Positions 1-5,735 of a DNA stretch of 32,000 nt are shown piece after piece. How positions within the stretch are numbered: the first letter of the stretch is position 1; each line of letters opens with the position of its first letter. The notes beneath the pieces were generated by a model. It worked only from the letters and a program-made list of their open reading frames with translations, was not told where the DNA came from and did not search any database. The position numbers were made by a program, and so were the translations under genes. The DNA is taken from NCBI GenBank assembly GCA_003144275.1, contig NJBF01000036.1, positions 1 through 32,000 on the forward strand, read 5' to 3'. Source of the DNA: Candidatus Heimdallarchaeota archaeon B3_Heim (lineage in GTDB: Archaea; Asgardarchaeota; Heimdallarchaeia; Hodarchaeales; Hodarchaeaceae).

Positions 1-46
1 TCTTTCCCTCATTTTTACCTTCTTTTATCTTTCCCTCCAGTGTCAT
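1..46 (-). CDS. 5' end of a gene running off the left edge; possibly CTP-dependent riboflavin kinase (RibK/DUF120)-like
   Basis: ATG at 46 reads MTLEGKIKEGKNEGK to the edge with no stop. This resembles the GxVxxGxGEG N-terminal motif of archaeal riboflavin kinases, but only 15 codons are visible. Confidence 0.3.
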   Translation of the reverse strand, partial: MTLEGKIKEGKNEGK

Positions 47-337
47 TCACTTTCTTTTAACGATTATAATGCTTTTTTAGCAATTTTCCTCCCCATAGCT
101 TAGTTACAACAATTTAGACGAAATCTCATATCGTTAAACTTCATAGAAACGAATTTGAAACTTTCCTCCTCTCAAAGTATATGAAATACTCTGATTCTAG
201 TCTGTAAACCAAGGTAAAAGCATATTGTACTTGTGATGACCACTCAATCCTGTAGGAAAATTTTAATAGCTGACTTTCAAAATTAAGAAGGTTCATTTTA
301 GAATTATGTAAATGGAACATTAAAGGAGGAAATTTAT

Positions 338-730
338 TTGTTGTTTAAAGAAAAAATTCAATCTATTAAGCTAAAATACGTTTTACTTTTTCATACCGTT
401 GTAGCTCTCTCTTTTGGGATTTCTTTTATCTTCTTTCCCGAAATTTTACTTCCTATGTTAACTATTTCGGTCGAAACGGGATCTCTTTACGGTTTTCGTC
501 TCTTCGGGAGTGTGGTCCTCGGTGTTGCACTTCTTGCATTTTGTATTCGCAATGAAGAACCATCATCAGCTCGACAATCTGTCTTATTGTTCTTTGTCTT
601 TGGGTTTTTTATCATGACTATCATACATTTCTTATATGCAGATTTGACTAATCTTATGAATTGGAGTATAATTATCATGCATTTGGGATTTGTCTTAGTC
701 TATGGATATTTCTTCTATCGGAATCGGTAA
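338..730 (+). CDS. Hypothetical integral membrane protein (about 4 TM segments)
   Basis: TTG start 8 nt after AGGAGG; four hydrophobic stretches; no family recognised. Confidence 0.75.
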   Translation: MLFKEKIQSIKLKYVLLFHTVVALSFGISFIFFPEILLPMLTISVETGSLYGFRLFGSVVLGVALLAFCIRNEEPSSARQSVLLFFVFGFFIMTIIHFLYADLTNLMNWSIIIMHLGFVLVYGYFFYRNR

Positions 731-735
731 AAGGA

Positions 736-2028
736 TTATTGTAACTCCATAAGTCTCTTTTTGGCTTCATCAAGCAGTGTTTCGACCTGTCTGCTTGATG
801 ACCCTGTCCCGAGTACAGATATTTTACCGTCAGAAATAGGCCCAACATTGAAGGGTAAAATGACGCCTGTGGTCTGTTCACCATCGTAAAGAAGTGCATC
901 CCAAACCCGTTCAAGATCAGCAAATGCTAAACCTTTTCGAGGCATATGCATATTTTCAGACCTGGCAGCATCTATTCTTCCATTTCGATTCTCCAGACGA
1001 GTTACAAGTTCCCATGGGTACATCGATCCAGTAACACGAGGATTACATTCAGCAGCAAAAAATCCGTCTTTTGTTTCAATATAGTCTAGACCAAAGGGCC
1101 CTATGTACCCTTCACTGACAAAATGCTGTGCAACTTTATAGGAAAGCCTTTTCACTTCCTGTTCATCAAAATAAAACGGAAACTCATTTCCCATATGGGA
1201 AGTTTCCTCATCTAGTATCTGGTTTGAGGTCTTAAGATGTAAAATTTTCTTATTTTTTGATATAAACCAAACTGAGGAGGGATTCGATTGTGTCTCATAA
1301 AAAGGTTCCACCATATACCGATCACCAGGTTGGCTATGATGAATAAGTTCCTTCAAAAGAGGTGAAGTCAGATCTTCAATAACATAGGTAGTTGATGCAG
1401 ACGCTCCATATTCCCCTCTAAGAATGACTTTTCCTGTCTCTAGCAGTTCTCTTCTAACAACTTCAACTAATGCTATTAAACACTGTTCACTTTTTGAATT
1501 AACCGTAAAGATTACTTCATCAATGACGGGAACACCAATTTTCCGACAAGCGTTTTTAAAATTGATTTTACTGTCAAATTTTCTTACTACATGAGGAAAG
1601 GAATACATTTCCAGATCTAAATATGTAGAAACTTGTTGCTCTAGGAGTCCTCCGAAATATGGACTCAGAACTGCTTTTTTTTGTCGATTTCCTAAATGCG
1701 ATCGAATAGTGTATTTTGTCCCATTTTTCAAGATTCGTTCAGGCAACGTTTCTTTTGGATTACCATCTAAGACAATAATTCGGTTTGTTCCGAGATTTAC
1801 GCTTTGGAGCCACTTCAAATATGATTTCTCAGGATGTGTTTTTGTAAGAATCACATCGTTGGGTCTAGCTATCGATATAGCACGATCATACCTCTCAATC
1901 CCTTCTACTTGGGTTATAATCTTTGAGAAATTCGGTAAAGTATTGATTTCGTGAAGAAATACCACTGGAGAACCTAACTGGTCAACGAAGGATCCGCAAT
2001 CCTCAAAAGAATTGTTGTCTTCACTCAA
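736..2028 (-). CDS. ATP-grasp ligase with N-terminal pre-ATP-grasp domain (PGM1-like amino acid/peptide ligase)
   Basis: FDSKINFKNACRKIGVP, VILRGEYGASAS, YMVEPF and GPFGLDYI...AAECNPRVTGS match ATP-grasp motifs. The TTG start overlaps the TGA of the upstream radical SAM gene (TTGA). Confidence 0.8.
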   Translation of the reverse strand: MSEDNNSFEDCGSFVDQLGSPVVFLHEINTLPNFSKIITQVEGIERYDRAISIARPNDVILTKTHPEKSYLKWLQSVNLGTNRIIVLDGNPKETLPERILKNGTKYTIRSHLGNRQKKAVLSPYFGGLLEQQVSTYLDLEMYSFPHVVRKFDSKINFKNACRKIGVPVIDEVIFTVNSKSEQCLIALVEVVRRELLETGKVILRGEYGASASTTYVIEDLTSPLLKELIHHSQPGDRYMVEPFYETQSNPSSVWFISKNKKILHLKTSNQILDEETSHMGNEFPFYFDEQEVKRLSYKVAQHFVSEGYIGPFGLDYIETKDGFFAAECNPRVTGSMYPWELVTRLENRNGRIDAARSENMHMPRKGLAFADLERVWDALLYDGEQTTGVILPFNVGPISDGKISVLGTGSSSRQVETLLDEAKKRLMELQ

Positions 2029-3548
2029 CTAGTTACCCCCGTTTCGAAGGAATGGTACAAATGAGTCAATTGCTCCACTTTATGTTGATCTTGTAAGAAG
2101 TCAGATGCAGTTTGCTCAAAAAACCATGAAGTAAGGTCTTGGATGGATTTCCCATCCAGAACGTCAAGTTGATCTTTGAGAAATGTCTGAAACTGGATAT
2201 AATAATCTACGAGCCGTAATCCTTGACCATTTTGGTGCTGAAATAGATCAAAAAAACTCTGCTTTAAATTCGATGTCCTATGAAGCAAATAAATTAAGAA
2301 AGCTAGCTCTTTTGCTTGGTTATATTCGAATTGAGGAAAGCTCTCATTTGAAATTAATTTATGAGGAGGCTCCTCCATATATTCAATACCATATTCACTC
2401 GGATTCTTATATAAGTCACTCCCAGGTAGACACAGTAATTCGTGGAAATAGATTCCTTCTGGTTTCAATTTTAGTACAAAATCAACACTATCAATGAATT
2501 GTGAGTAATTGTCCCCAGGTAATCCAATAATTAAACTAAACCAAAATTCAACAGCTTTATTCTGTTGCCTTATCAATTTAATGTTTTTTCGATAAAGCTC
2601 TGCATTAAACTTTCTCTTTATCCGACTAAGTACTTCAGGCGCGGTTGATTGCACCCCAAATGCGAATTCTTCATTGTTCAGCTGGCTAATCAGTTCAACT
2701 ATTCGCTCATTGGTTAAGTATTCGGGACTCACTTCAAATGTAACAGGTTTTTTATGTTTATTAGCTTCTATTAAAAAGTTCAATAACTCTAAGGATCTTT
2801 CTTTTCGTAAAAATGGATTGGAATCCGTGATATAGACCGTTCTGACCTTAGGATGGTTGAATAAAAATTCGAAAGCTGGTTTTATTTTTTCTAGACTGAA
2901 ATATTTCATCTTTCTTTCTCCCCAAGTACAGTAAGCACACGAAAATGGACATCCTCTAGAAGTTTCAATCGCGGCCCTAACAGGTGTTTTACTGTTCTCT
3001 AAATAGTTTCGATAATCTTGACTTTCATATGGTAAAACGAGATCATCAAGATTCTTCATTTGAGCTTCTGGATTGCTTAAAACCATTCCATTTTTTCGAT
3101 ATATTAGACCTGGAACCGTGCTTAAGTCCTTAGTTGTTAAAAACGATTTGAATGCATATTCTCCTTCCCCGTTGAACACAAAATCAACAAAATCATATTT
3201 CACTAGAATCTGTTCAGCTAAACCACTTGCTTCGGGTCCTCCTAAGACGATAATTCTTTTCGGATTCGTTTCTTTCAATTTTCCAGCGAGAACAAGAATT
3301 TTCTCAAAATTCCAAACATAGGCTGTAAACCCGTATATCTGTTCATTACCAGTCTCTAAGTCCTGAAAAATATCCTCGTTCGAAGTATTAATATCATATT
3401 GGGAAATATGTACCGAAAATTTCTTTGAAATCTCAGGATCCTTAAGGATATAACTTTTAATACTAACAGGGGCAAGAGATAGATCTCGACCTGGAAAGCT
3501 TATTGAAACAAGCTTGATTGATGTAATTTGGCTATCGTTGAATTTCAT
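2025..3548 (-). CDS. Cobalamin-binding radical SAM protein (class B methyltransferase-like)
   Basis: N-terminal B12-binding domain (GFTAYVWN, VLGGPEAS, NGEGE); ETSRGCPFSCAYC gives CxxxCxxC; downstream FGVQS and IIGLPGD motifs. Confidence 0.92.
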   Translation of the reverse strand: MKFNDSQITSIKLVSISFPGRDLSLAPVSIKSYILKDPEISKKFSVHISQYDINTSNEDIFQDLETGNEQIYGFTAYVWNFEKILVLAGKLKETNPKRIIVLGGPEASGLAEQILVKYDFVDFVFNGEGEYAFKSFLTTKDLSTVPGLIYRKNGMVLSNPEAQMKNLDDLVLPYESQDYRNYLENSKTPVRAAIETSRGCPFSCAYCTWGERKMKYFSLEKIKPAFEFLFNHPKVRTVYITDSNPFLRKERSLELLNFLIEANKHKKPVTFEVSPEYLTNERIVELISQLNNEEFAFGVQSTAPEVLSRIKRKFNAELYRKNIKLIRQQNKAVEFWFSLIIGLPGDNYSQFIDSVDFVLKLKPEGIYFHELLCLPGSDLYKNPSEYGIEYMEEPPHKLISNESFPQFEYNQAKELAFLIYLLHRTSNLKQSFFDLFQHQNGQGLRLVDYYIQFQTFLKDQLDVLDGKSIQDLTSWFFEQTASDFLQDQHKVEQLTHLYHSFETGVTS

Positions 3549-3936
3549 AAGTCCTCATGATAATGCACCTCTGGTAAGTAAAAATTATAAAAACTGGAGT
3601 ATCTCCACGTTCTAGGAACTAATTTACTAAAAGAGACGGAGTATTTTCTAGATTTGAAGGCGGTTTGACTGTGAAAAATTAATTTCTTGATCCCTTCTTG
3701 TCATTTTTAACTCCAAACGTCCCCTTTCTTTCAGAGTATTTAAACCTTTTTTTATTTACACTCGCTCTTTTTTATCAGATTCAGAATTCACTACCAAGTT
3801 TATCAGACTGGATTGTTGATGATAACCGTTTTTTTTCACCCACGCTTCAGAACTGCTAACGAACAGAAAATGTGACCAACTAGTATCTTTTTTCTGTTTC
3901 TGGAAAAAGAAAAAAGCAAGGAGGTGGGTAAAAACC

Positions 3937-4680
3937 CTATCTTCTTTTATGGTAAACGAGTGCGAGACTAAATAGACTAATCAGCAGAAAAATTCCTTGA
4001 AATCCTGGGGTACTATCCGTAATGGTAGTAGAGGGATTCTCTTGAGTAGTAGTTTTAGTCTGTTGAGGCGTACCGATAGTTATAATTGATGATCCTCTAG
4101 CTCCACCATGGTATTCACTGAAACTGTCTGATGCACCATAAGCCCAAATGATATCAATTTCACCTTCAACGGGGATATTTTTATCATAATTTTCGTCACC
4201 AGTTGAAAGGAGACGAGTGAATTCTATGCTAGTGCTTGTTGCATTTTCTATCCCATTATAAGAAAGAATGTCATCAGTTCCTCCAAGATCGGTATCAAGT
4301 GGATGATTACCCCCCGTTGGATTGAGGGAAAAAGCATCGATAATTACTACGGTCCCATTTGCCTCTACCCACGCATATATTATGTCGGCGTCTTGCATTT
4401 GGGTTGTTGGATCAAAACCGATTGCAACCCATCCTGTGGTTTGTGCTACAATTCCAATTGAAATACTTGTGGCATCTATGAGCTCCCAAGAGAGTTCAAA
4501 TGCTCCACTACCAAAAGATTTTGACGAATTATATTCTCCGGAATTAATGATTCCATCGATTACTGGAGCTTGCAGTACTTCAAAGTTAATTTCTTGTGCA
4601 CTCGCTATTTGAGTTCCAGCAATGAGAAGACTGAAAAATATGAATATAGAAGTAATTTCGATATGTTTTTTTTGTAACAT
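3937..4680 (-). CDS. Exported DOMON-domain protein with Thr-rich linker and PGF-CTERM-like membrane anchor
   Basis: GWVAIGF..TTQMQDADII, EFTRLL.TGD and WAYG..EYHG motifs; signal peptide; C-terminus TPGFQGIFLLISLFSLALVYHKRR. Start set at ATG 4680, which follows GGTGA (ORF track begins at 4737). Confidence 0.88.
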   Translation of the reverse strand: MLQKKHIEITSIFIFFSLLIAGTQIASAQEINFEVLQAPVIDGIINSGEYNSSKSFGSGAFELSWELIDATSISIGIVAQTTGWVAIGFDPTTQMQDADIIYAWVEANGTVVIIDAFSLNPTGGNHPLDTDLGGTDDILSYNGIENATSTSIEFTRLLSTGDENYDKNIPVEGEIDIIWAYGASDSFSEYHGGARGSSIITIGTPQQTKTTTQENPSTTITDSTPGFQGIFLLISLFSLALVYHKRR

Positions 4681-4749
4681 GAAGTTCACCAATTTAGCGT
4701 ATGATACGGAACACTTAGAAGCAAATTTTAAAGACAATTTCCAATGAAT

Positions 4750-4764
4750 CTCGAAAATTTCGAG
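4750..4764. promoter_or_regulatory. Perfect inverted repeat, candidate operator
   Basis: CTCGAAA-A-TTTCGAG in the TSUP-DOMON intergenic gap, upstream of the DOMON start. Confidence 0.4.
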
Positions 4765-4856
4765 AATCGAAGCACTAATTAATGGGGATTGAAGCGAAAA
4801 ATGATTCCAAAGGAAAGACTAGCATTTCAGAGGCATCGATGAAGGTAAAGGTTCAG

Positions 4857-5735
4857 CTAAAATATTCCTAACCCTTTCAACATCATTATCAAACCAAATA
4901 AAATGAATATTGCAATCATTAATTTATCAGATGTTTCGGAACTAACACGCGTTGCTATTCGTGGTCCTATTTGCCCACCAATTAATACTCCAGGGATAGT
5001 GAATATAACCAACTCCCAAGGAACAGATTCTATTCCAACTAATAACGTATCAGCTAAAGTGGCAATAAGAACTGTAATCGTGACAACAAATACTGATGTA
5101 CCAGCAGCTATTTTCATAGGTAAGCCACACCGTACACGAAGAGTAGTGATTGCCGACTCTCCTATTCCAAAACTAATAAATCCAGCAGCAAAACCACCTA
5201 TACCATTTAATAATCTTCCCTGCCGAGCATTACATACTTTGTACTCATATTTGTTATTTTCACTATCTAAAATAACCCTACTGGGATCAGATGATTTTGA
5301 AACAGGTGAACCATGTTTTTCCTTCCTTTTATTAATTATTATATAAATTGTTAAAATCCAAAGTCCTAACCCAAAAAGAAGACTCAAGACTTCATTTAAG
5401 TCAAAATCTTCGATTACACGTTTGGCTACCACTCCGACAATTCCTGCAGGGATTGAAATGGCTAAGATTGTCATACCAGTCTTGAAGTCAATCAATTTTC
5501 TTCTAGAATATCCAAACAATCCACTAGCAAAACCAAACACTTCAGTTAATAACGCAGCCCCAAATGCATCAGCTGGAGAAAGAATGGGAACCCCTATAAT
5601 AGGAAAAAGGATAATGAATATAGGAGAAAAGAACAGTGCACCACCAATTCCAAGGGTCATTGCAATGGACGCAACTATTATCGCAATAGGAAACATGAAC
5701 CAATATACTAATAGATCTATCATTTCTTTAGCCAC
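4857..5735 (-). CDS. TSUP (TauE/SafE) family sulfite/organosulfur exporter
   Basis: GIGGALFFSP, FASGLFGYSRRKLIDFK, GIGES, AAGTS and GVLIGGQIG motifs; many TM helices. Confidence 0.9.
   Translation of the reverse strand: MAKEMIDLLVYWFMFPIAIIVASIAMTLGIGGALFFSPIFIILFPIIGVPILSPADAFGAALLTEVFGFASGLFGYSRRKLIDFKTGMTILAISIPAGIVGVVAKRVIEDFDLNEVLSLLFGLGLWILTIYIIINKRKEKHGSPVSKSSDPSRVILDSENNKYEYKVCNARQGRLLNGIGGFAAGFISFGIGESAITTLRVRCGLPMKIAAGTSVFVVTITVLIATLADTLLVGIESVPWELVIFTIPGVLIGGQIGPRIATRVSSETSDKLMIAIFILFGLIMMLKGLGIF

What the first reader, a model, noticed from the sequence alone, without database searches (positions are those of the whole stretch)
736..3548. Coupled B12-radical SAM + PGM1-like ATP-grasp pair: candidate unknown biosynthetic system in an archaeon
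Seen: the two genes overlap in a TTGA start/stop junction, so they are probably translationally coupled. Known: cobalamin-dependent radical SAM enzymes methylate unactivated C or P atoms, and pre-ATP-grasp/ATP-grasp enzymes of the PGM1 type ligate unusual acids to amino acids or peptides. Inference: a two-step modify-then-ligate pathway making a modified peptide, cofactor or small metabolite. I do not recognise this pair from characterised archaeal pathways. It is the best candidate here for an undescribed system.
Basis: partly seen in the sequence, partly recalled or inferred. Interest (0 to 1): 0.72.

Follow-up and report, generated by a model that had tools for sequence, protein, structure and literature searches.

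The report
Isoleucine-controlled radical SAM plus ligase operon
A cobalamin-type radical SAM enzyme and an amino-acid/peptide ligase form a tightly coupled, uncharacterised two-gene operon in Asgard archaea and a few bacteria. Short leader reading frames built around isoleucine codons precede it, which suggests an undescribed way of supplying isoleucine.

Summary
Window 2025-3548 (-) encodes a B12-binding radical SAM protein. Window 736-2028 (-) encodes a PGM1/BesA/LdmS-like ATP-grasp ligase whose TTG start overlaps the upstream TGA stop.

- **Conservation.** The pair recurs with a stop/start overlap or a gap of at most 2 nt in 12 loci: Hodarchaeales, Heimdall- and Thorarchaeota, Planctomycetes and CSSED10-310. 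The flanking genes differ between loci.
- **Distribution.** It is patchy, found in 9 of 301 Asgard genomes searched. Neither protein reaches any curated family cut-off.
- **New finding: leader reading frames.** Bacterial loci, and some Asgard loci, carry isoleucine-rich leader peptides. The bacterial ones sit behind sigma-70-like promoters and are followed by two terminators, like a classical ilv/thr-type attenuator. The window and 12 other Hod/Thor loci instead carry two tiny upstream ORFs (uORFs), M-x-R-R-D-x-[Q/E]-I and M-R-x-x-[Q/E]-I, each behind a Shine-Dalgarno-like (SD) site. The Ile codon is invariant.
- **Host metabolism.** The host genome (94% complete) shows no IlvC or IlvD.

Best reading (about 0.4): the operon is switched on by isoleucine shortage. 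The radical SAM enzyme C-methylates an amino acid, most simply valine to isoleucine, on a handle made by the ligase. Rivals are a specialised methylated dipeptide, or a tiny ribosomal-peptide system. Nothing was shown biochemically.

The parts
3737..3744 (-). TATA-like box (TTTAAATA), 40 nt upstream of the uORF1 start; candidate archaeal promoter of the operon
   Evidence: Read directly from the sequence. An equivalent TTTAAAT/TTTATAA/TTTATAT box sits at the same distance in L010, L003, L011, L001, L013 and L014. No transcription data.
3648..3704 (-). uORF1: an 18-codon mini-ORF beginning M-T-R-R-D-Q-E-I, with GGAG 9-12 nt before the ATG
   Evidence: All 13 Hod/Thor loci have a start codon (ATG or GTG), then x-R-R-D-x-[Q/E]-I in frame, then a variable tail of 1-10 codons. 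Only synonymous changes occur at Asp (GAT/GAC) and Ile (ATT/ATC).
3585..3607 (-). Terminator-like element between uORF1 and uORF2: a 5-bp hairpin (TGGAG-ATA-CTCCA) followed by GTTTTTATAA
   Evidence: 1 site found against 0.2 expected in shuffles. Function not shown. The whole-leader fold is no more stable than shuffled sequence (z = -0.35).
3532..3558 (-). uORF2: an 8-codon mini-ORF beginning M-R-T-Y-E-I, behind GAGGTG; it overlaps the rSAM start codon out of frame
   Evidence: A second mini-ORF, M-R-[D/T/S]-x-[Q/E]-I, lies 135-155 nt after the uORF1 start in all 13 loci.
2025..3548 (-). Cobalamin-type (class B) radical SAM enzyme, 507 aa (P0001)
   Evidence: Pfam B12-binding and Radical_SAM. 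CxxxCxxC at C200/C204/C207 is invariant in alignment A4. The AF2 model has pLDDT 91. Best folds are TokK and CysS, E about 1e-28, TM 0.76-0.81. Sequence matches in PDB: TokK 1e-28, CysS 5e-27.
2025..2028 (-). TTGA start/stop overlap between the two genes
   Evidence: The overlap or near-abutment is conserved in 12 loci.
736..2028 (-). PGM1/BesA/LdmS-like ATP-grasp ligase with an N-terminal pre-ATP-grasp domain, 430 aa (P0002)
   Evidence: Pfam ATP-grasp_3. K154, E241, D315, E327, N329 and R331 are invariant or nearly so. The AF2 model has pLDDT 92.9. Best folds: 8ynd ATP-grasp peptide ligase, BesA, PGM1, LdmS. A profile search of PDB finds the same four.

Best explanation
This is an operon induced by isoleucine shortage. 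One transcript starts at a TATA-like box and carries two mini-ORFs, each holding a conserved Ile codon. In other lineages the leader is instead a peptide with runs of Ile codons followed by terminators. The transcript then encodes the radical SAM enzyme and the ligase, which are translationally coupled.

Proposed chemistry, all inferred:
1. The ATP-grasp ligase activates a carboxylate as an acyl phosphate and joins it to the amino group of an amino acid. This gives a dipeptide-like or gamma-glutamyl-like handle, as BesA, BtrJ and LysX do.
2. The cobalamin radical SAM enzyme transfers a methyl group to an unactivated sp3 carbon of the bound amino acid. The simplest case converts a gamma-methyl of valine to ethyl, which gives the sec-butyl side chain of isoleucine. 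Its nearest solved relatives, TokK and CysS, carry out exactly this kind of methyl-to-ethyl and isopropyl/sec-butyl extension.
3. A general peptidase would release isoleucine.

Shown: the gene pair, its coupling and conservation, the enzyme classes, the intact active-site motifs, and the Ile-codon leaders. Inferred: control by Ile-tRNA charging, the substrate, the order of the two reactions, and the product.
For: **1. Coupled, conserved pair with changing flanks.**. In an all-against-all comparison of 11 loci, only these two genes recur.

**2. Bacterial leaders look like attenuators.**
- L007 353-433, L081, L093/L094 and L006 2501-2581 encode 26- to 35-codon peptides with 3-5 consecutive or clustered Ile codons of mixed type (ATT/ATA/ATC).
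- L006 and L093 have a TTGACA-N17/18-TATACT promoter.
- Each locus has two GC-rich hairpins with T-runs before the rSAM gene. In L006, 5 terminator-like sites were found against 0.6 expected.
- The 3' end of the leader ORF (GGAGGCAGCGG) is complementary to the 5' arm of the first terminator.
- The L006 leader gives a full-length but sub-threshold match to Rfam Thr_leader (33.9 bits, E = 0.008).

**3. Archaeal loci without the RRD motif also have Ile-rich leaders.** These are L008/L015, L084 and L089 (which ends A-A-I-I-I-G), plus the unpaired rSAM locus L082, whose taxon is unknown. Across all fetched loci, only 27 of 17,754 small ORFs have at least 5 Ile in 7 residues, and about 8 of those are these leaders.

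**4. The 13 Hod/Thor leaders keep one invariant Ile codon** at the end of the conserved part of each uORF, with ATT/ATC variation.

**5. Canonical branched-chain synthesis was not found.** The window's genome (94% complete) has no IlvC or IlvD, while all 14 control genomes score over the cut-off. Of the other pair-bearing Asgard genomes, IlvC was not found in 5 of the 8 tested, and IlvD in 4 of the 5 tested. A product feeding the IlvC/IlvD route is therefore unlikely.

**6. Nearest solved relatives of the rSAM** are TokK and CysS. The CysS entries hold 3-methoxy and 3-ethoxy substrates, consistent with stepwise C-methylation of a tethered small molecule.

**7. The ligase** falls with amino-acid/peptide ligases that install handles or make dipeptides.

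**8. Cobalamin use is plausible.** The genome holds 9 B12-binding domains.
Against: - No enzyme assay, metabolite or expression data exist.
- No hydrolase to release the product travels with the pair.
- In the window itself each uORF has a single conserved Ile codon, not a run. The nucleotide core AGAAGGGAT is invariant even at third positions. RNAalifold finds only a weak structure with almost no covariation, and the leader fold is no better than shuffled sequence. Isoleucine sensing by the type found in the window is therefore a weaker inference than for the poly-Ile leaders.
- Lack of IlvC does not separate genomes with and without the pair inside the genus: 4 of 5 with the pair lack it, against 13 of 17 without.
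- Orthologues of the ligase at 34-44% identity stand without the rSAM in DPANN-like and other archaea, so the ligase reaction does not need the methylase.
- The bacterial partner ligases are only 23% identical and sit on a long separate branch.
- Conversion of valine to isoleucine by methylation has no precedent in the papers searched.
Confidence: 0.4

Rival explanations
1. The pair makes a specialised small metabolite: a C-methylated dipeptide or pseudopeptide (antimetabolite, osmolyte or signal) built from common amino acids. Under this reading the Ile-codon leaders report general amino-acid starvation, or the pathway uses isoleucine or makes an isoleucine analogue rather than supplying isoleucine.
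For: - The ligase's closest folds and profiles are natural-product and dipeptide ligases: 8ynd, BesA, PGM1 and LdmS.
- The rSAM's closest relatives are antibiotic-tailoring methylases, and its best NCBIfam hit is the KedN5 family.
- Distribution is patchy and accessory: 9 of 301 Asgard genomes and 5 of 21 in the genus, with unrelated flanks.
- A relative fused to an AsnB-like amidotransferase exists (P0254).
Against: - No transporter, resistance gene or further tailoring gene travels with the pair.
- To my knowledge, leader peptides with runs of one codon followed by terminators control supply of that amino acid (biosynthesis, its tRNA synthetase), not secondary metabolism.
- Ile-codon leaders recur in at least three or four unrelated leader designs.
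Confidence: 0.3
2. A minimal ribosomal-peptide (RiPP-like) system. The two mini-ORF peptides (core R-R-D-x-Q-I and R-D-x-Q-I) are the substrates. The rSAM methylates a residue, and the PGM1-like ligase acylates the peptide's N-terminus or a side chain.
For: - PGM1 joins an acid to ribosomally made short peptides (established knowledge; summarised in PMC8939145).
- Many class B rSAMs methylate peptides, and the RiPP methylase model TIGR03975 scores 91 bits.
- Two related mini-ORFs with SD sites lie directly upstream as first cistrons.
- The two copies co-vary: Cys/Cys in most Thor loci, Tyr/Tyr in L088, Glu/Glu in the window and L010.
- Residue 2 of uORF1 is Thr, Ser or Val in 12 of 13 loci (Gln in L083), and those three would allow removal of the initiator Met.
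Against: - The peptides are 6-18 residues with no leader or follower long enough for recognition.
- No RRE domain, protease or exporter was found.
- The conserved part is followed by tails that vary in length and sequence even between close relatives.
- Bacterial and several Asgard loci with orthologous enzymes have no such peptide, but have Ile-run leaders with terminators instead. An enzyme pair conserved at 38% identity would not be expected to change its substrate peptide completely.
Confidence: 0.12
3. The pair modifies a macromolecule or cofactor encoded elsewhere, such as a protein terminus, a tRNA-linked amino acid, a lipid head group or a coenzyme tail. The ligase would add an amino acid and the rSAM would methylate it.
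For: - ATP-grasp ligases such as RimK, LysX, CofF and MptN do this (established knowledge).
- MgmA, the methyl-coenzyme M reductase glutamine methylase, is the second tier of fold matches.
- One unpaired orthologue of the ligase lies next to riboflavin genes.
Against: - The sporadic distribution argues against a housekeeping target.
- No target gene co-occurs with the pair.
- The ligase's nearest relatives are small-molecule and peptide ligases rather than RimK/LysX types.
Confidence: 0.08

Closest known systems
TokK/ThnK (carbapenem) and CysS (cystobactamid): cobalamin-dependent radical SAM C-methylases
   Same: N-terminal B12-binding Rossmann domain plus a radical SAM barrel with CxxxCxxC. 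These are the best sequence matches (E 1e-28 and 5e-27) and fold matches (TM 0.76-0.81). They extend a methyl group stepwise to ethyl, isopropyl or sec-butyl on a tethered small molecule, which is the chemistry needed to turn a valine side chain into an isoleucine side chain.
   Different: Only 20-22% identical. The window protein is 507 aa against 645-681 aa, with a different, shorter helical C-terminal part. There is no carrier protein or pantetheine-linked pathway nearby. It sits in a two-gene operon, not a large antibiotic cluster.
PGM1 (pheganomycin), the Streptomyces ATP-grasp peptide ligase 8ynd, BesA (L-propargylglycine--L-glutamate ligase) and LdmS (L-Asp--L-Met ligase)
   Same: Pre-ATP-grasp plus ATP-grasp architecture. 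Foldseek E 4e-22 to 1e-17 with TM 0.63-0.75. Profile hits E 4e-14 to 4e-9. The ATP and Mg ligand residues are conserved.
   Different: 13-16% identity. No PGM1_C domain was detected. The LdmS equivalog scores 28.8 bits against a cut-off of 475. The substrates are unknown.
ilv/thr-type leader-peptide transcription attenuators of bacteria
   Same: In L006, L007, L081 and L093: a promoter, a short ORF with clustered Ile codons, a segment complementary to the terminator's 5' arm, and hairpin plus T-run terminators directly before the operon. L006 gives a full-length sub-threshold match to Rfam Thr_leader.
   Different: They control a radical SAM/ligase pair instead of ilv or thr genes and are below the Rfam cut-off. 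The archaeal version in the window has two mini-ORFs with a single conserved Ile codon each and a conserved R-R-D-x-Q context. That resembles short arrest or leader peptides such as ErmCL or the MAGDIS uORF (recalled from memory, not tested).
Handle-based amino-acid pathways: LysW/LysX (archaeal lysine/arginine synthesis), BtrJ (butirosin), BesA (beta-ethynylserine)
   Same: The logic is the same: an ATP-grasp ligase masks or tethers the amino group so that a second enzyme can work on the side chain. BtrJ-family clusters are among the Atlas look-alikes.
   Different: No carrier protein and no releasing hydrolase lie in the cassette. The resemblance is in logic only, and membership was not tested.
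PylB/PylC (pyrrolysine) and EpmB/EpmA (EF-P beta-lysylation)
   Same: In both, a radical SAM enzyme makes an unusual amino acid and a ligase attaches it.
   Different: PylB and EpmB are not cobalamin-domain enzymes, PylC is a D-Ala-D-Ala-ligase-type ATP-grasp, and EpmA is a LysRS paralogue. No sequence relation was found here.

Membership tests
Class B (cobalamin-dependent) radical SAM methyltransferases | N-terminal B12-binding Rossmann domain | tested here: met
   PF02310 scores 46.1 bits against a cut-off of 32.1, residues 47-135. The fold superposes on TokK and CysS.
Class B (cobalamin-dependent) radical SAM methyltransferases | CxxxCxxC motif for the [4Fe-4S] cluster that cleaves SAM | tested here: met
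   C200, C204 and C207 are invariant in 18 sequences. PF04055 scores 78.4 bits.
Class B (cobalamin-dependent) radical SAM methyltransferases | Methyl transfer via methylcobalamin to a substrate radical | not testable with these tools
   Some members of the class do other chemistry (OxsB, BchE, AprD4), so methylation is inferred only from the nearest relatives.
KedN5 family (NCBIfam NF033712) | Score over the curated cut-off | tested here: not met
   140.1 bits against a cut-off of 700.
PGM1-like pre-ATP-grasp/ATP-grasp ligases | ATP-grasp domain with the Lys, Glu and E-x-N-x-R ATP/Mg ligands | tested here: met
   PF02655 scores 30.6 bits against 23.2. K154, E241, D315, E327, N329 and R331 are conserved.
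PGM1-like pre-ATP-grasp/ATP-grasp ligases | N-terminal pre-ATP-grasp domain (PF18604) | tested here: inconclusive
   18.4 bits against a cut-off of 27.5 for the window protein, and 21.6 bits in the genome search. Relatives P0182 and P0191 exceed it at 42 bits. The model aligns over its whole length with PGM1 and 8ynd.
PGM1-like pre-ATP-grasp/ATP-grasp ligases | PGM1_C C-terminal domain (PF18105) | tested here: not met
   No Pfam hit at E <= 0.01. The domain is seen only in some actinobacterial look-alike clusters.
LdmS, L-aspartate--L-methionine ligase (NF047900) | Score over the curated cut-off | tested here: not met
   28.8 bits against a cut-off of 475.
RiPP biosynthetic cluster | Precursor peptide gene next to the modifying enzymes | tested here: inconclusive
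   Two conserved mini-ORFs lie upstream in 13 loci. They are absent from bacterial and several Asgard loci that hold orthologous enzymes.
RiPP biosynthetic cluster | Recognition domain (RRE), leader protease or exporter | tested here: not met
   No such Pfam domain in either protein. No recurrent third gene.
Leader-peptide transcription attenuator | Short ORF with a cluster of codons for the regulating amino acid | tested here: met
   Met in L006, L007, L081, L093/L094, L082, L008, L084 and L089. In the window itself there is only one invariant Ile codon per uORF, so for the window this feature is inconclusive.
Leader-peptide transcription attenuator | Terminator, plus alternative pairing with the end of the leader ORF | tested here: met
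   Met for the bacterial loci: two hairpin plus T-run sites and an 8-11 nt complement between the leader's 3' end and the terminator's 5' arm, read from the sequences. The window has one weak hairpin plus T5 site. The switch itself was not tested.
Rfam Thr_leader (RF00506) | Score over the gathering threshold | tested here: not met
   L006 2520-2640 scores 33.9 bits against 55, E = 0.008. Nothing was found in the window.

The most novel reading that the evidence does not exclude
Isoleucine is made by cobalamin-dependent radical methylation. A TokK/CysS-like enzyme extends the valine side chain, or builds the sec-butyl group stepwise from a smaller amino acid, on a handle installed by a PGM1-like ligase. 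This would give archaea and bacteria that lack the IlvC/IlvD route a two-gene way to make isoleucine. The operon would be switched on by ribosomes pausing at Ile codons in leader reading frames. If so, these would be, to my knowledge, among the first leader-peptide or arrest-peptide controls proposed in Asgard archaea.
Probability: 0.3. Interest if true: 0.92.

Novelty: new variant of a known kind. Interest (0 to 1): 0.78.

Why it matters
**A possible new route to a proteinogenic amino acid.** Every described route to isoleucine passes through 2-oxobutyrate and the shared IlvBN/IlvC/IlvD/IlvE enzymes. A two-gene route that methylates an existing amino acid would be new chemistry for primary metabolism. 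It would change how auxotrophy is inferred from genomes of uncultured Asgard archaea, and it would give class B radical SAM enzymes a role outside natural-product tailoring and cofactor or protein modification.

**Possible translation-sensing control in Asgard archaea.** The conserved mini-ORFs, M-x-R-R-D-x-[Q/E]-I and M-R-x-x-[Q/E]-I, are a candidate case of control by the translating ribosome in the archaeal lineage closest to eukaryotes.

**Still useful if the isoleucine reading is wrong.** The pair remains a clean, compact, cross-domain orphan enzyme system that could be tested directly by expression.

Tried and rejected
- **Complex prediction.** Complex prediction on the two proteins, with alignments A4 and A3, returned no verdict (score 0.00, controls not run). 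It says nothing either way.
- **Fused forms.** A search for longer proteins found none (weak evidence). Two longer relatives from the representative search are not rSAM fusions: P0254 has an AsnB-like N-terminus, and P0240 has an N-terminus with no Pfam hit.
- **Downstream small genes.** The convergent small ORF after the ligase (window 338-730 and its counterparts in L001 and L003) is not homologous between loci.
- **A recurrent third gene.** None was found among 11 loci. Flanks are shared only with a near-identical genome (L009).
- **Known RNA families.** Rfam finds nothing credible in window 1-5000.
- **RNA structure of the Hod/Thor leader.** RNAalifold gives -1.86 kcal/mol with one compensatory pair. 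The single-sequence fold has z = -0.35. I do not claim a structured RNA.
- **A 44- to 49-codon ORF between uORF2 and the rSAM in Thor loci.** Its frame is broken or absent in L086, L087, L088 and L091, so I reject it as a consistent gene.
- **Alanine to 2-aminobutyrate to 2-oxobutyrate as the product route.** I consider this unlikely, because most genomes carrying the pair show no IlvC or IlvD.
- **Anticorrelation of the pair with IlvC inside the genus.** It does not discriminate.
- **ArsL-like CCAEP-tail rSAM plus ligase pairs noted earlier in this scan.** The window protein ends ...E-T-G-V-T-S with no Cys-Cys tail, and no ArsL-type family appears among the 25 best NCBIfam hits shown, out of 40. 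It is a different family.
- **Literature.** Searches for this pair, for PDB entry 8ynd, and for valine methylation to isoleucine found nothing relevant.


Full report
**1. The observation**

Window 2025-3548 (-) is a 507-aa ORF (P0001) and window 736-2028 (-) is a 430-aa ORF (P0002). The second starts at a TTG whose last two bases, with the next two, form the TGA stop of the first (agTTGAgt). A G-rich SD-like stretch lies 9-13 nt upstream.

Pfam assigns B12-binding and Radical_SAM to P0001, and ATP-grasp_3 to P0002, all above their cut-offs. The pre-ATP-grasp domain of P0002 is below its cut-off at 18.4 against 27.5 bits. The window is AT-rich (about 36% GC). The named relatives of both proteins show it comes from a Hodarchaeales/Heimdall-group Asgard archaeon.

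**2. The pair is a conserved unit**

- Homologues of the ligase at 43% identity or more are, where a source names them, all Asgard: Hodarchaeales, Heimdall- and Thorarchaeota.
- The rSAM orthogroup runs from 97% to about 49% identity in Asgard. A sister group at 38-40% follows, whose named members are bacterial (Planctomycetes, candidate division CSSED10-310). Below that, scores drop sharply to generic B12-rSAM proteins at about 30%.
- In every Asgard locus that includes upstream DNA, the rSAM lies directly before the ligase (L001-L004, L008-L015).
- The same holds in L006, L007, L081 and L093/L094 of the sister group. One locus of unknown taxon, L082, has the rSAM without a ligase on a short contig.
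- Flanking genes differ between lineages. In an all-against-all comparison of 11 loci, the only protein families shared by three or more loci are these two.
- In 12 loci the stop and start overlap (ATGA, TTGA, TAATG) or lie 1-2 nt apart.
- The cassette is sporadic. It occurs in 9 of 301 Asgard genomes searched, 3 of 90 high-quality ones, and 5 of 21 in the window's genus. It is an accessory cassette, not a housekeeping one.

**3. The two enzymes**

*Radical SAM enzyme (P0001).*
- It has the CxxxCxxC motif (C200/C204/C207, invariant in alignment A4) behind an N-terminal Rossmann domain.
- All NCBIfam hits are far below their cut-offs. The best is KedN5, at 140 against 700 bits.
- The nearest solved proteins by sequence are TokK (1e-28) and CysS (5e-27).
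- An AF2 model (pLDDT 91) superposes best on the same two (TM 0.76-0.81). MgmA, AprD4, OxsB and TsrM follow.
- TokK and CysS are cobalamin-dependent C-methylases that extend alkyl groups stepwise on tethered small molecules. The CysS entries hold 3-methoxy and 3-ethoxy substrates.

*Ligase (P0002).*
- It keeps the ATP-grasp ligands K154, E241, D315, E327, N329 and R331.
- Its model (pLDDT 92.9) matches a Streptomyces ATP-grasp peptide ligase (8ynd), BesA, PGM1 and LdmS over the whole length.
- A profile search of PDB sequences finds the same four.
- Atlas look-alikes are PGM1-, BtrJ- and LdmS-type clusters.
- It is therefore a carboxylate-amine ligase of the amino-acid/peptide type, but a member of no characterised orthologous group.

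*Relatives of the ligase without the rSAM.* Archaeal orthologues at 34-44% identity stand alone: L005 next to riboflavin genes, L077 and L079. In two Woesearchaeota they follow a DAO-family flavoenzyme. In a maximum-likelihood tree these unpaired proteins fall inside the same well-supported archaeal clade as the paired Asgard ones. The bacterial partners sit on a long separate branch and are only 23% identical. One rSAM orthogroup therefore travels with two very divergent PGM1-like ligases. This strengthens the functional link between the two enzyme types, and it shows that the ligase reaction can exist without the methylase.

**4. The leader region: the main new result**

A search for small conserved ORFs around the pair found a conserved peptide start upstream of the rSAM in Hod and Thor loci that share nothing else outside the two genes.

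*Type A leaders (window and 12 other loci).*
- All 13 loci of this type carry two mini-ORFs on the operon strand.
- uORF1 is M-x-R-R-D-x-[Q/E]-I followed by 1-10 variable codons. It lies behind GGAG and about 40 nt after a TATA-like box.
- uORF2 is M-R-[D/T/S]-x-[Q/E]-I followed by a short variable tail. It lies behind GAGGTG or GGAGGT and starts 135-155 nt after uORF1.
- In the window these are 3648-3704 (-) and 3532-3558 (-). uORF2 overlaps the rSAM start codon out of frame.
- At the conserved Asp and Ile codons only synonymous changes occur (GAT/GAC, ATT/ATC), and the start varies between ATG and GTG.
- The two copies co-vary: Cys/Cys, Tyr/Tyr in L088, Glu/Glu in the window and L010.
- Against a purely peptide-level reading, the core AGAAGGGAT is invariant at third positions. 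It can pair with a pyrimidine stretch after the uORF1 stop, but the consensus structure is weak and has almost no covariation.

*Type B leaders (no RRD motif).*
- Loci without this motif have a leader ORF rich in isoleucine instead.
- In the bacterial loci the leader has a sigma-70-like promoter (TTGACA-N18-TATACT, 11 of 12 matches in L006; the same hexamers in L093).
- The leader peptide has 26-35 codons, with 3-5 adjacent or clustered Ile codons using ATT, ATA and ATC.
- Its 3' segment (GGAGGCAGCGG) is complementary to the 5' arm of the first of two GC-rich hairpin plus T-run terminators that precede the rSAM start.
- This is the anatomy of an ilv/thr-type attenuator. The L006 leader gives a full-length but sub-threshold match to Rfam Thr_leader.
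- Asgard loci L008/L015 (12 Ile in 22 codons), L084 and L089 (a GC-rich lineage, leader ending A-A-I-I-I-G), and the unpaired rSAM locus L082, have the same kind of leader. L012 is ambiguous because its Ile run is a pure ATT repeat.
- Among 17,754 small ORFs in all 94 fetched loci, only 27 have at least 5 Ile in 7 residues, and about 8 of those are these leaders.
- Some leaders are clearly homologous to each other (L007/L081/L093; L008/L084). Still, at least three or four unrelated designs converge on Ile codons, and the type A mini-ORFs share the invariant Ile codon.

**5. What it most likely does**

To my knowledge, leader peptides with runs of one codon followed by terminators switch operons on when the cognate charged tRNA is scarce, and they control the supply of that amino acid. 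I therefore read the operon as induced by isoleucine shortage.

*Host metabolism.* The window's genome (94% complete) shows no IlvC or IlvD, while all 14 control genomes score over the cut-off. Of the other pair-bearing Asgard genomes, IlvC was not found in 5 of the 8 tested, and IlvD in 4 of the 5 tested. A product that feeds the canonical pathway, such as 2-oxobutyrate, would be of little use there. A reaction that creates the isoleucine skeleton directly from an imported amino acid would be useful.

*Chemistry.* Methylating a gamma-methyl of valine gives isoleucine. Extension of methyl to ethyl or sec-butyl is what TokK and CysS do. The ligase would supply a dipeptide-like or gamma-glutamyl-like handle, as BesA, BtrJ and LysX do. 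This fits the fact that the nearest rSAM relatives act on tethered rather than free substrates. A general peptidase would then release the product.

*Order of the two reactions.* The existence of stand-alone orthologous ligases suggests that the ligase uses ordinary amino acids and that methylation follows ligation. The opposite order (as in PylB/PylC or EpmB/EpmA) is not excluded.

*Cofactor supply.* The genome encodes nine B12-binding domains but no CobS was found. It probably imports cobamides.

Only the genes, their coupling, the enzyme classes and the leader anatomy are shown. Regulation by isoleucine, the substrate, the order and the product are all inferred. I put the isoleucine-supply reading at about 0.4, and the specific valine-to-isoleucine reaction at about 0.3.

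**6. Rivals**

- **(a) A specialised methylated dipeptide or pseudopeptide (0.3).** This fits the natural-product relatives and the patchy distribution. It does not explain the Ile-codon attenuators or the absence of export and resistance genes.
- **(b) A minimal ribosomal-peptide system in which the mini-ORF peptides are the substrates (0.12).** It is attractive because PGM1 uses ribosomal peptides and because the two copies co-vary. But orthologous enzyme pairs in bacteria and other Asgard lineages lack these peptides, and the peptides have no recognition part.
- **(c) Modification of a macromolecule or cofactor encoded elsewhere (0.08).**

**7. Comparison with what is known, and novelty**

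Both enzymes are new members of known superfamilies and fail every curated family cut-off that was tested. From memory, not verified here, the actinomycete clusters for pheganomycin and resorcinomycin combine a PGM1-type ligase with a radical SAM methylase. A review confirms a radical SAM gene in the pheganomycin cluster (PMC8939145). Those are large clusters with polyketide-type genes.

A free-standing two-gene operon shared by Asgard archaea and bacteria, under Ile-codon leaders, was not found in the literature searched.

An earlier first-reader note of this scan, on another genome (e1-2792589), describes a repeated motif encoding related peptides directly upstream of an ATP-grasp plus B12-rSAM pair. 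It may be the same kind of leader, but I could not inspect it. Other rSAM-plus-ligase pairs noted in the scan (ArsL-like, with a CCAEP tail) belong to a different family.

I rate the finding a new variant of a known kind, with a real chance of a categorically new amino-acid pathway.

Noticed in passing
L019 4676-7332 and L020 4549-7266: In two Woesearchaeota, the orthologue of the ligase (36-38% identity) follows a DAO-family FAD oxidoreductase instead of a radical SAM gene, downstream of a NOG1-type GTPase. This may be a different two-enzyme module built on the same ligase.
   Followed up: partly
P0254 (1103 aa) and P0240 (896 aa), from the representative search: P0254 fuses an AsnB-like glutamine amidotransferase/asparagine synthetase to a PGM1-like pre-ATP-grasp/ATP-grasp ligase. 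This is reminiscent of the AsnO/Ngg pair that makes the dipeptide osmolyte NAGGN (recalled from memory). P0240 has a 460-aa N-terminus with no Pfam hit.
   Followed up: partly
whole genome G000: The genome (94% complete) shows no IlvC, IlvD or CobS, but it has nine B12-binding domains and three threonine-dehydratase-like genes. It is probably auxotrophic for branched-chain amino acids and dependent on imported cobamides. IlvC-like genes occur in only 5 of 22 genomes of the genus.
   Followed up: partly
L001 6362-6496, L013, L014, L085 (between uORF2 and the rSAM start): Thor-type leaders have an extra 165-209 nt segment that reads as a 37- to 49-codon ORF ending ...F-Q-E-x-W in some loci. The frame is broken or absent in L086, L087, L088 and L091, while the nucleotides near the rSAM start stay conserved. 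This is more likely leader RNA than a gene.
   Followed up: partly
window 3937-4737 (-): A DOMON-domain protein with a signal-like N-terminus and a C-terminal hydrophobic tail. The tail gives a sub-threshold match to the Heimdall-CTERM sorting domain (17.9 against 24 bits).
   Followed up: no
window 3532-3558 (-): In the window, L010 and L083, uORF2 overlaps the rSAM start codon in another frame. The conserved Ile codon lies just after that start codon. A ribosome pausing there would sit on the rSAM start, so the mechanism in these loci (occlusion, reinitiation or a frame change) is unclear.
   Followed up: no
L007 3748-8312 and L081 5240-6720: In the Planctomycetes-type loci, carA and carB (carbamoyl-phosphate synthase) follow the ligase on the same strand after about 90-115 nt. 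It is not known whether they belong to the same transcript.
   Followed up: no
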